A stretch of 64,000 nt of DNA from the human T2T-CHM13v2.0 reference genome, Homo sapiens. The position numbers were made by a program, and so were the translations under genes. The DNA lies in the NCBI RefSeq assembly GCF_009914755.1, contig NC_060931.1; one strand, 5' to 3'. The notes under the pieces were generated by a model. The model was given only the letters and a program-made list of their open reading frames with translations. It did no database searches and was not told where the DNA came from. This document shows, in pieces, positions 13,295-15,347 of the stretch. Every line of letters begins with the position of its first letter. The first letter of the stretch is position 1.

Positions 13295-13352
13295 CTCTCC
13301 ATGGTTGAAAAAGAAGCACAGTACTGTAATAAGACCTCCCAGTTGAGTCCCA
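13295..13352 (-). pseudogene. DPY19L2P1: Exon 7 (GTQLGGLITVLCFFFNHGE)
   Basis: aacag|T GGG...GAG|gtttgt; 58 nt; phase-2 start. Confidence 0.92.
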
Positions 13353-13609
13353 CTGTTAAAAAAAAAAAAATAGAGTATACAATCAAAATTCATGTAAAAT
13401 ACAGTGAATTTTTCACAAAATTAACTCAGAATTTAAAATCACAGTTTTCTATATTTAAAACATAATAGTACTAAACCATACCCATGTGGTTGAAGTTTAA
13501 ATTCTGAATGTACAATTCTAAAAAGTGTATGTATAAATTAATCTCAATTGTATAATTTATTATAGCTAAAATACTTTCTAAATAAAATACATAAGGTGTG
13601 AACATAATC

Positions 13610-13897
13610 TTTTTTTTGAGACGGGGTCTTGCTCTGTTGCCCAGGCTGGAATGCAGTGGCGAAATCTCGGCTCACAGCAACCTCCGCCTCCTGGGTTCCA
13701 ACGATTCTCCTGCCTCAGGCTCCTGAGTAGCTCGGATTATAGGCGCATGCTGCCACGCCCGGCTAATTTTTTTACTTTTAGCCGAGACAGGGTTTCACCG
13801 TGTTGGCTAAGCTAGTCTCGAACTCTTGACCTCGTGATCCACCCGCCTCGGCCTCCCAAAGTGCTGAGATTACAATTGTGAGCCAACGCGCCCGGCC
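13610..13897 (-). mobile_element. AluS
   Basis: Antisense Alu. Confidence 0.95.
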
Positions 13898-14142
13898 ACA
13901 TAAAATCATTTTTAAGAAGCAGGCTAGCACTTTAGAGTCTAGATCACATCCTTTGAATACTCTGAATAAAAGCAAATTTTATCTTTTGAAATTGGATTTA
14001 AGGGACTGAGAGATGAAGACAAGATTCTAACAGTTTCACGTAGCATTAACTTAGAACTGTCTAAACTACTGCAAATATTCTTTACTTGAGTCCCAGAGAA
14101 GCAATAACGCAGAATACAAAATTCAGATGAAAGATAAAAACC

Positions 14143-14459
14143 TTTGTTGTTGTTGTTGTTGTTTTGTTTTGTTTTGAGACAGACTCTCGCTCTGTCACCC
14201 AGGCTGGAGTGCAGTGGCGCGATCTCGGCTCACTGCAACCTCTGCCTCCCTGGTTCAAGCCGATTCTTCTGCCTCAGCCTCCCGAGTAGCTGGGATTACA
14301 GGCACATGCCACCACACCTGGCTGATTTTTGTATTTTTTAGTAGAGACGGTGTTTCGCCATGTTGGCCAGGCTGGTCTCAAACTCCTGACTTCAAGTGAT
14401 CCGGCCACCTCAGCCTCCCAAAGTGCTGGGATTACAGGCATGAGCCACCGCACCTGGCC
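14143..14459 (-). mobile_element. AluS with (TTG)n tail
   Basis: Antisense Alu. Confidence 0.95.
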
Positions 14460-14873
14460 AAAAACCATTTCTTAAATTGCCTTTTTGTGATCATGTCTGT
14501 GTATGAGAATGCAGATGCTCAATCCCACATCTGTGTAGTGTTTCTATGCTTCCATTTATCTTCCCTCCATACACCACTTCCCTAGTCTAACACATTCTAA
14601 GCACCATGAGGACAGGGACAGGTTCTTTATCTGTCTTGTTCATTACTATATCCCCAGCTTCACACTTGGAAGATTAATAAATATTGGTTGAATTAATGAA
14701 GAAAGAAAGGAAGGAAACAGCAGAGGAAAGCTCATGGGAAATGATTTACCATTTAATAAAGTTTCACAGAGAAAATACAAAGGATGAACTTCAAAGAGGA
14801 AGAAATTGAAAGAAAGAATGGGTGAGCAGCAAGGACCAGTTGTACATTGAGGAACTGGGGAAATGTGGATAAA

Positions 14874-15347
14874 TCAAAGTAAGATGAGTTGGTTGGGGGT
14901 GGAGCCAAGATGGCTGAATAGGAACAGCTCCAGTCTACAGCTCCCAGCGTGAGCAATGCAGAAGACGGGTGATTTCTGCATTTCCAACTGAGGTACTGTG
15001 TTCATCTCACTGGGGATTGTCGGAAAGTGGGTGCAGGACAGTGGGTGCAGTGCACCAAGCATGAGCCGAAGCAGGGAAAGGCATTCCCTCACCTGGGAAG
15101 CGCATGGGGTCAGGGAATTCCCTTTCCTAATCAAAGAAAGGGGTGACAGAAGGCACCTGGAAAATCGGGTCACTCCCACCCTAATACTGCACTTTTCCAA
15201 CGGTCTTAGCAAACAGCACACCAGGAGATTATATCCCGCACCTGGCTCGGAGGGTCCTATGCCCACAGAACCTCCCTCATAGCTAGCACAGCAGTCTGAG
15301 ATCAAACTGCAAGGTGGCAGCGAGGATGGGGGAGGGGCGCCTGCCAT
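14874..15347 (-). CDS. L1 ORF0 (antisense 5'UTR ORF), open and extended to 157 aa
   Basis: MAGAPPPSSLPPCSLISDCCAS...RVGVTRFSR resembles L1 ORF0; Kozak gtaATGG; donors after nt 106 and 191. Translation not demonstrated. Confidence 0.6.
   Translation of the reverse strand: MAGAPPPSSLPPCSLISDCCASYEGGSVGIGPSEPGAGYNLLVCCLLRPLEKCSIRVGVTRFSRCLLSPLSLIRKGNSLTPCASQVRECLSLLRLMLGALHPLSCTHFPTIPSEMNTVPQLEMQKSPVFCIAHAGSCRLELFLFSHLGSTPNQLILL

What the first reader, a model, noticed from the sequence alone, without database searches (positions are those of the whole stretch)
13295..15347. L1 ORF0 splice donor is in frame with pseudogene exon 7: a possible L1-driven bypass of the frameshift
Seen: the intron-6 L1 is antisense to the pseudogene, so its antisense promoter fires toward exon 7. 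ORF0 is intact from ATG 15347 (gtaATGG). Its donor after nt 191 (CCAG|gtgcct, last exonic base 15157) is phase 2, and exon 7 begins at phase 2. A 1.8-kb splice gives ...RVGVTRFS-S-GTQLGGL..., and the ancestral frame then stays open through exon 11. Known: L1 antisense promoters and the ORF0 donors at about +106/+191 make ORF0-exon fusion transcripts. Inference: an ORF0(63 aa)-DPY19 multi-TM chimera downstream of the exon-5 lesion could exist. It would lack the catalytic loop, and the donor is weak.
Basis: partly seen in the sequence, partly recalled or inferred. Interest (0 to 1): 0.8.

Follow-up and report, generated by a model that had tools for sequence, protein, structure and literature searches.

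The report
Silent intronic L1 beside pseudogene exon
An old L1 element in an intron of the DPY19L2P1 pseudogene could on paper splice its small antisense reading frame in frame onto exon 7, but the exon 7 used by the known transcript carries a stop codon and no spliced transcript was found, so it looks like an ordinary silent repeat.

Summary
The sequence facts hold. A full-length L1 lies at 14895 to about 21036 on the + strand, antisense to DPY19L2P1. ORF0 starts at ATG 15347. A CCAG|GTGCCT donor follows ORF0 nt 191 and matches the phase of exon 7. Exon 5 has a 1-nt deletion.

The claim that the frame stays open is only half right. The annotated exon 7 (13166-13352) ends at a donor found in this copy alone of five paralogous copies. 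Its 129-nt extension carries an in-frame TAA (13268-13270), so that fusion stops after 91 aa. Of the four combinations of ORF0 donor and exon 7 donor, only nt-191 donor plus the unannotated ancestral exon 7 (13295-13352) gives a long frame. That frame stays open through 15 exons to the native stop, about 534 aa. It lacks the catalytic glutamate.

The L1 predates the DPY19L2 duplications and sits at the same site in DPY19L2 and DPY19L2P2. Its nt-191 donor is the minority GTGCCT form (50 versus 739 exact genome matches).

Published lists give no spliced evidence. The two DPY19L2P1 ESTs come from a different L1PA2. This L1PA5 has one unspliced read pair in 1 of 11 samples.

Verdict: ordinary intronic L1; the chimera is arithmetically possible, unsupported and unlikely.

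The parts
14895..21036 (+). Full-length L1. The hg19 RepeatMasker label, as quoted in Pinson 2022 Table S2, is L1PA5 (6142 bp). It is antisense to DPY19L2P1 in intron 6, and its sense ORFs are fragmented.
   Evidence: 5' end read and aligned to a younger L1. Table S2 row Id_1451 gives hg19 chr7:35191428-35197569. The offset to T2T is 101,467 bp, against 101,456 bp for the neighbouring L1PA2. The 3' end is inferred from the 6142-bp length and the A-rich tail. The longest sense stop-to-stop ORF is 233 aa. It keeps about 131 nt that the L1PA2 copy lacks.
15157..15347 (-). ORF0 from its ATG (L1 position 453) to the nt-191 donor (L1 position 263): 63 codons plus 2 nt.
14874..15347 (-). The whole open frame that starts at the ORF0 ATG, 157 codons. 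This is longer than the roughly 70 aa quoted for canonical ORF0.
   Evidence: The 70-aa figure comes from passages of a review.
15152..15160 (-). Second ORF0 donor, CCAG|GTGCC, last exonic base 15157. It lacks A at +4 and G at +5.
   Evidence: Genome-wide there are 50 exact 21-mers of this form against 739 of the GTGCGT form.
15237..15245 (-). First ORF0 donor, CCAG|GTGCG, last exonic base 15242 (ORF0 nt 106). It is out of frame with exon 7.
   Evidence: A fusion through this donor stops after 58 aa with either form of exon 7.
15283..15462 (-). Upstream out-of-frame ATG (L1 position 568) opening a 59-aa ORF that overlaps the ORF0 start. It would compete with ORF0 in transcripts that start further upstream.
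   Evidence: The ATG is absent from the chr12 copy (ACG) and from the L1PA2 copy.
13295..13352 (-). Ancestral exon 7, 58 nt, donor GAG|GTTTGT. It is identical to exon 7 of DPY19L2.
   Evidence: 0 differences in 58 nt.
13166..13294 (-). 129-nt extension of exon 7 used by NR_002833.3. It holds an in-frame TAA at 13268-13270. Its donor GTT|GTAAGT exists only in this copy: G at 13165 where the other four copies have A.
   Evidence: Annotation supplied with the finding.
27912..28031 (-). Exon 5 with a 1-nt deletion about 17 nt before its 3' end. This is the frameshift. Its GC donor is shared with DPY19L2.
4111..10960 (-). Exons 8-11 (10869-10960, 8069-8168, 4960-5037, 4111-4197). They are open in the ancestral frame.
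   Evidence: 3 differences from DPY19L2 in the 357 nt of exons 8-11, no indels. Exon 8 matches Pfam Dpy19 positions 150-188 and C. elegans DPY-19 residues 209-237.
13567..14466 (-). Two Alu-like repeats (13567-13919 and 14138-14466) between the L1 and exon 7, in sense orientation on the - strand.
   Evidence: Masked stretches in the supplied annotation and the sequence. The name Alu is recognised by eye and comes from no tool.

Best explanation
This is an ordinary, old, coding-dead full-length L1PA5. It inserted antisense into intron 6 of the ancestral DPY19L2 locus before that locus was duplicated. It keeps the ORF0 ATG and both ORF0 splice donors simply by descent.

The phase match between its second donor and exon 7 is a one-in-three coincidence. 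It is not an adaptation to the later exon-5 frameshift.

In this copy a private A-to-G change created a GTAAGT donor 129 nt beyond the ancestral exon-7 donor, and the known transcript uses it. The added segment holds an in-frame TAA. Any antisense-promoter transcript spliced like the curated RNA would therefore encode at most 91 aa. By the usual 50-nt rule it would also be a target of nonsense-mediated decay, because the stop lies 102 nt before the next junction.

Shown: the anatomy, frames, paralogue comparison and donor variants. Inferred: that no meaningful ORF0-DPY19 protein is made.
For: - The L1 sits at the same site in DPY19L2 (chr12) and DPY19L2P2, at 95% identity over 2 kb. The ATG and the GTGCCT donor are identical, with no indels over the 191 nt.
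- The GTAAGT donor occurs in this copy alone of the 5 aligned copies.
- The TAA lies in the annotated exon. Only 1 of the 4 donor combinations gives a long ORF.
- The donor is the minority form, 50 versus 739 exact genome matches.
- An out-of-frame upstream ATG lies at 15462.
- In the Criscione 2016 supplements (11 files searched), both DPY19L2P1 rows are ESTs from an L1PA2 at hg19 chr7:35.13 Mb. None comes from this L1.
- Pinson 2022 Table S2 gives this L1 one unspliced read pair in 1 of 11 samples, not validated.
- As quoted in Criscione 2016, 57 of about 3200 ORF0 loci showed exon fusions.
Against: - Nothing in the sequence forbids the chimera. The ATG context is good (G at -3, G at +4).
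- The crude U1-pairing energy of the nt-191 donor (-7.1 kcal/mol) falls inside the range of this gene's own working donors, -3.0 to -12.2.
- The ancestral exon-7 donor is intact, and it is the one DPY19L2 uses.
- The downstream frame is open through all 15 exons examined.
- Antisense promoter activity is reported for L1PA2 to L1PA8.
- DPY19L2P1 is expressed in brain, heart, placenta and testis.
- The lists I read were ESTs, 11 brain or glioma samples, and a methylation study that profiled only the L1PA2. I could examine no testis, embryonic stem cell or long-read junction data for this L1.
- Denli 2015 and its table of fusions were not available.
Confidence: 0.79

Rival explanations
1. The L1 antisense promoter fires at a low level in permissive cells and yields spliced L1-exon 7 chimeric RNAs. 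These are non-productive: the first donor is out of frame, or the long exon 7 brings a stop, so they are degraded or non-coding.
For: Antisense promoter activity is reported up to L1PA8. Both donors and a strong exon-7 acceptor are present. One antisense L1-flank read pair was seen in 1 of 11 samples. Three of the 4 donor combinations end early.
Against: The single read pair is unspliced and could equally be pseudogene pre-mRNA, since the L1 is intronic and antisense. No EST from this L1 appears in Criscione's set of 2015 ESTs. No junction data were available to me.
Confidence: 0.18
2. One reading: an ORF0(63 aa)-Ser-DPY19L2P1 protein of about 534 aa is made from the nt-191 donor and the short exon 7. 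It bypasses the exon-5 frameshift and gives a multi-pass membrane protein without the catalytic glutamate.
For: The frame arithmetic is right. The frame is open through the short exon 7, exons 8-11 and ten further located exons to the native stop, with 23 differences from DPY19L2 in 1414 nt and no indels. The Kozak context is good.
Against: It needs two unannotated splice choices at once. The curated exon 7 carries a TAA. The donor is the weak minority form. An upstream out-of-frame ATG is present. There is no spliced evidence. One of the 22 annotated exons was not located, so the open frame is not fully proven.
Confidence: 0.03

Closest known systems
L1 ORF0 and ORF0-exon fusion transcripts (Denli et al. 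2015, known to me only through citing papers)
   Same: An antisense ATG in the L1 5' UTR at L1 position 453, an open frame, and two CAG|GT donors inside it that can join downstream exons.
   Different: No fusion transcript is shown here. The ORF runs 157 codons instead of about 70. The second donor is the GTGCCT variant. The element is an old L1PA5.
L1 antisense-promoter chimeric transcripts, including the documented one in this same pseudogene
   Same: An intronic full-length L1 antisense to its host gene, with its 5' UTR facing downstream exons. Criscione 2016 lists DPY19L2P1 as a host gene.
   Different: The documented transcripts (ESTs BF028725 and DA748563) start in a younger L1PA2 at window -43975..-37947, far downstream and outside the window. 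That copy has a consensus-like second donor, CAG|GTGAGT.
DPY19L2 / C. elegans DPY-19 tryptophan C-mannosyltransferase (Pfam Dpy19, PDB 7ZLG)
   Same: Exons 4, 6 and 8 match Pfam Dpy19 positions 33-84, 83-138 and 150-188. Exons 4 and 8 align to DPY-19 residues 73-118 and 209-237.
   Different: The hypothetical chimera would start near residue 190 of the worm enzyme. It keeps the Arg211 equivalent but lacks the first luminal loop with the catalytic Glu71.
L1-MET and similar N-terminally truncated host proteins driven by intronic L1 antisense promoters (recalled, no call)
   Same: The same logic: an intronic antisense L1 supplies a start site for a 5'-truncated host transcript.
   Different: Those cases rest on transcript evidence and young L1PA2 or L1HS elements. 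This one has neither.

Membership tests
L1 ORF0 locus | Antisense ATG with a good initiation context in the L1 5' UTR | tested here: met
   ATG at 15347, which is L1 position 453, with G at -3 and G at +4. It aligns with the ORF0 ATG of an L1PA2 copy.
L1 ORF0 locus | Open frame from that ATG through both internal splice donors | tested here: met
   157 codons are open. Donors follow nt 106 and nt 191.
L1 ORF0 locus | Transcription from the antisense promoter | not testable with these tools
   No CAGE or RNA-seq tool was available. The only published trace is one unspliced read pair in 1 of 11 samples.
ORF0-exon fusion gene | A spliced junction between an ORF0 donor and a host exon, seen in RNA | tested here: not met
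   None was found for this L1 in the Criscione 2016 supplements, Pinson 2022 Table S2, Garza 2023 or a breast long-read study. No paper holds both ORF0 and DPY19L2. Denli's own table was not available.
ORF0-exon fusion gene | The fusion keeps the host reading frame | tested here: inconclusive
   Met for the nt-191 donor with the short exon 7. Not met for the annotated exon 7 or for the nt-106 donor.
Dpy19 family (PF10034) | Exon translations match the family profile in the expected order | tested here: met
   Window exons 4, 6 and 8 match profile positions 33-84, 83-138 and 150-188. PDB alignments agree.
Dpy19 family (PF10034) | Catalytic glutamate of the first luminal loop present in the product | tested here: not met
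   The Glu71 position lies at the end of exon 3, upstream of the fusion point. In this pseudogene that residue is also Lys where DPY19L2 has Glu.

The most novel reading that the evidence does not exclude
In cells where L1 5' UTRs lose methylation (germ cells, early embryo, some tumours), the intron-6 L1PA5 would start an RNA that uses the nt-191 ORF0 donor and the ancestral exon-7 donor. That RNA would be translated into a protein of about 534 aa, an ORF0 head on a DPY19L2-like body. It would be a catalytically dead multi-pass membrane protein rescued from a pseudogene by a transposon.

The same logic fits DPY19L2P2 more cleanly. There ORF0 is open, and exon 7 has only the ancestral donor.
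Probability: 0.03. Interest if true: 0.4.

Novelty: already known. Interest (0 to 1): 0.12.

Why it matters
If the chimera were real, a retrotransposon promoter and start codon would be restoring translation to the intact 3' two-thirds of a pseudogene. That would bear on how pseudogenes and transposons together create new proteins.

As it stands, the locus is an annotated pseudogene intron holding an annotated L1. The useful results of this check are:
- The curated exon 7 blocks the proposed frame.
- The arrangement is inherited, not specific to the frameshifted copy.
- The documented L1-driven transcript of this pseudogene comes from a different, younger L1.

Tried and rejected
The frame question was answered instead by a genome-wide Pfam Dpy19 search and by single-exon alignments to PDB sequences. 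Exon 12 alone gave no DPY-19 match.
- Two processed DPY19-like pseudogenes, on chr1 and at chr7:146.7 Mb, were fetched as cDNA-like guides for exon boundaries. They shared only Alu-like repeats with DPY19L2 and were dropped.
- Downstream exons were instead located by comparing chr12 ORFs with DPY19L1 genomic DNA. This found 10 exons. RefSeq counts 11 exons downstream of exon 11, so one was not located. A search between exons 12 and 13 found nothing. The ten chain into one open frame on chr12 without it.
- The idea that the L1 or its frame match is specific to the frameshifted copy was rejected. The opposite idea, that the parent gene could make the same fusion, was also rejected: the chr12 copy of ORF0 has a stop at codon 38.
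- The U1 duplex energy did not separate the two exon-7 donors (-5.4 versus -6.1), so it says nothing about which one wins.
- Denli 2015, Speek 2001 and Matlik 2006 are not held.

Full report
WHAT IS THERE

Read on the minus strand, window 15700-13100 shows the reverse complement of an L1 5' UTR ending at 14895. It is followed by unique intron, two Alu-like repeats and exon 7. The L1 runs on the + strand from 14895 to about 21036.

Pinson et al. 2022 Table S2 lists the element as L1PA5, hg19 chr7:35191428-35197569, 6142 bp, + strand, host DPY19L2P1. The hg19-to-T2T offset is 101,467 bp. That agrees with the 101,456 bp of a second L1 in the same gene, so the identification is safe.

The element's sense ORFs are broken; the longest is 233 aa. 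It retains about 131 nt of 5' UTR that a younger L1PA2 copy lacks.

THE OBSERVATION

- ATG 15347 (ggtaATGg) opens a 157-codon frame.
- CCAG|GTGCCT has its last exonic base at 15157, which is ORF0 nt 191 and leaves 2 nt of a codon.
- A second donor, CCAG|GTGCGG, follows nt 106.
- Exon 7 begins at 13352 after a long pyrimidine tract.

The ancestral frame of exon 7 was fixed independently in three ways:
- The chr12 parent gene has the same 58 nt.
- Pfam Dpy19 matches exons 4, 6 and 8 at profile positions 33-84, 83-138 and 150-188.
- Exon 8 aligns to C. elegans DPY-19 residues 209-237.

The exon-5 lesion is real. It is a 1-nt deletion relative to DPY19L2 about 17 nt before the exon's end. Exon 6 is identical to the parent.

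WHERE THE READING FAILS

RefSeq NR_002833.3 has 13166-13352. I aligned this copy with its four genomic paralogues: chr12 DPY19L2, chr7:104.5 Mb, chr7:32.8 Mb and chr7:29.8 Mb.

- All five share the ancestral donor GAG|GTTTGT at 13295.
- Only this copy has GTAAGT at 13165. The other four have ATAAGT.
- So one base that differs only in this copy made a new donor 129 nt downstream, and the curated transcript uses it.
- The extension is a multiple of three but contains TAA at 13268-13270 in the ancestral frame.
- Carson et al. [quoted passage not shown]

Of the four combinations of ORF0 donor and exon-7 donor:
- The nt-106 donor stops after 58 aa with either form of exon 7.
- The nt-191 donor with the annotated exon stops after 91 aa. 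That stop lies 102 nt before the next junction, so the RNA would be expected to undergo nonsense-mediated decay.
- Only the nt-191 donor with the short exon stays open.

HOW FAR THE OPEN FRAME WOULD GO

I located downstream exons by comparing chr12 ORFs with DPY19L1 genomic DNA.

- Ten exons (81, 102, 72, 47, 25, 120, 175, 100, 126 and 151 nt) chain on chr12 into one open frame of 332 aa ending at a stop.
- In this pseudogene the same ten have no indels and no stops, with 20 differences in 999 nt.
- Exons 7 (short form) to 11 differ at 3 of 415 nt.
- The theoretical chimera is therefore 1605 nt, or 534 aa.
- RefSeq counts 22 exons and I found 21, so one exon was not examined (one search found nothing between exons 12 and 13).

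The product would begin near residue 190 of the worm enzyme. It would keep the Arg211 equivalent. It would lack the first luminal loop with the catalytic Glu71.

THE ARRANGEMENT IS INHERITED

The unique flank and the L1 are present at the same place in DPY19L2 on chr12 and in the chr7:104.5 Mb copy (DPY19L2P2), at 95% identity over 2 kb. The ATG, the 191-nt spacing and the GTGCCT donor are the same in all three.

Carson 2006 shows that this chr7p14 locus is the ancestral one. The L1 was therefore there before the duplications and before the frameshift.

ORF0 is open in this copy and in DPY19L2P2. In the functional chr12 gene it has a stop at codon 38.

STRENGTH OF THE SIGNALS

- The nt-191 donor lacks A at +4 and G at +5.
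- Genome-wide, the 21-mer ending in GTGCCT occurs 50 times and the one ending in GTGCGT 739 times. This L1 therefore carries a minority form. It is shared with 49 other exact matches genome-wide, including the chr12 paralogue, so it is not a private mutation.
- A crude U1-pairing energy is -7.1 kcal/mol. The nt-106 donor scores -7.5, the majority form -8.1, and this gene's own donors range from -3.0 to -12.2. The donor is weak but not impossible.
- An out-of-frame ATG at 15462 opens a 59-aa ORF across the ORF0 start. It would interfere in transcripts that start upstream of L1 position 568.

EXPRESSION EVIDENCE IN PRINT

- Criscione 2016 (passages and 11 supplementary files searched) describes 2015 ESTs and 988 transcripts. 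Both rows for DPY19L2P1 are ESTs starting in an L1PA2 at hg19 chr7:35.13 Mb, outside this window. None starts in this L1.
- Pinson 2022 Table S2 gives this L1 one read pair in 1 of 11 samples (8 gliomas, 3 controls). The pair spans L1 positions 57-158 and the adjacent flank, is unspliced, and is not validated. Because the L1 is intronic and antisense, pseudogene pre-mRNA would give the same pair.
- The Garza 2023 supplement (1 file) and a breast long-read study (6 files) do not mention the gene.
- Lanciano 2024 profiles only the L1PA2.
- A pan-cancer study treats DPY19L2P1 only at gene level.
- No paper in the library holds both ORF0 and DPY19L2.
- Denli 2015 was not available. Through Criscione's text, 57 of about 3200 ORF0 loci showed fusions, a prior of about 2%.

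VERDICT

The sequence observations are accurate apart from the exon-7 boundary. That boundary matters, because the annotated exon closes the frame.

The most likely account is a silent or near-silent inherited intronic L1 whose phase match with exon 7 is coincidental (about 0.8). A low-level, non-productive chimeric RNA is possible (about 0.18). A translated ORF0-DPY19 protein is unlikely (about 0.03).

This is an instance of a well-known kind, and there is no evidence that it operates.

Noticed in passing
window 13164-13165 (- strand GT), with 13268-13270: An A-to-G difference seen in this copy alone of 5 paralogous copies creates a GTAAGT donor. It lengthens exon 7 by 129 nt and brings in a TAA. 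This is a second inactivating lesion, separate from the exon-5 frameshift.
   Followed up: yes
window about 44490-44495 (3' end of exon 3, - strand): The residue two positions before the GLYYSY motif aligns with the catalytic Glu71 of C. elegans DPY-19. It is Glu in DPY19L2 (FRTEM) but Lys in this pseudogene (FRTKM).
   Followed up: partly
outside the window: T2T chr7:35234025-35240053 (window -43975..-37947): A younger L1PA2, also antisense to the pseudogene, is the source of the two published L1-antisense ESTs for DPY19L2P1. Its second ORF0 donor is a consensus-like CAG|GTGAGT.
   Followed up: partly
L009 and L002 (chr7:104.55 Mb, DPY19L2P2): In DPY19L2P2 the same L1 has ORF0 open for 157 codons and the same donor. 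Exon 7 there keeps only the ancestral donor and reads open by eye. That copy's reported lesions are in exon 3 (Carson 2006).
   Followed up: partly
exons 7-21 of the pseudogene (window 13352 down to -55300): The coding exons differ from DPY19L2 at 23 of 1414 nt (1.6%) with no indels, while the shared intronic L1 differs at about 5%. This suggests long constraint on both copies, or gene conversion, before this copy was inactivated. Thirteen of the 20 differences in exons 12-21 change an amino acid (counted by eye).
   Followed up: partly
window 27904-27911 (exon 5 donor): Exon 5 ends at a GC donor (AAG|GCATGT). The functional chr12 gene has the same donor, so it is the natural splice site and not a lesion.
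   Followed up: yes
L010 (chr12:63606.7 kb): The copy of this L1 in the functional DPY19L2 gene has a stop at ORF0 codon 38 and lacks the upstream ATG. Pinson 2022 lists a 6139-bp L1PA4 in DPY19L2 with 11 reads in one glioma. I take it to be this paralogue but did not verify the coordinates.
   Followed up: partly
window 32247-32776: The annotated S100A11P2 pseudogene lies in intron 4 on the opposite strand. It was not examined.
   Followed up: no
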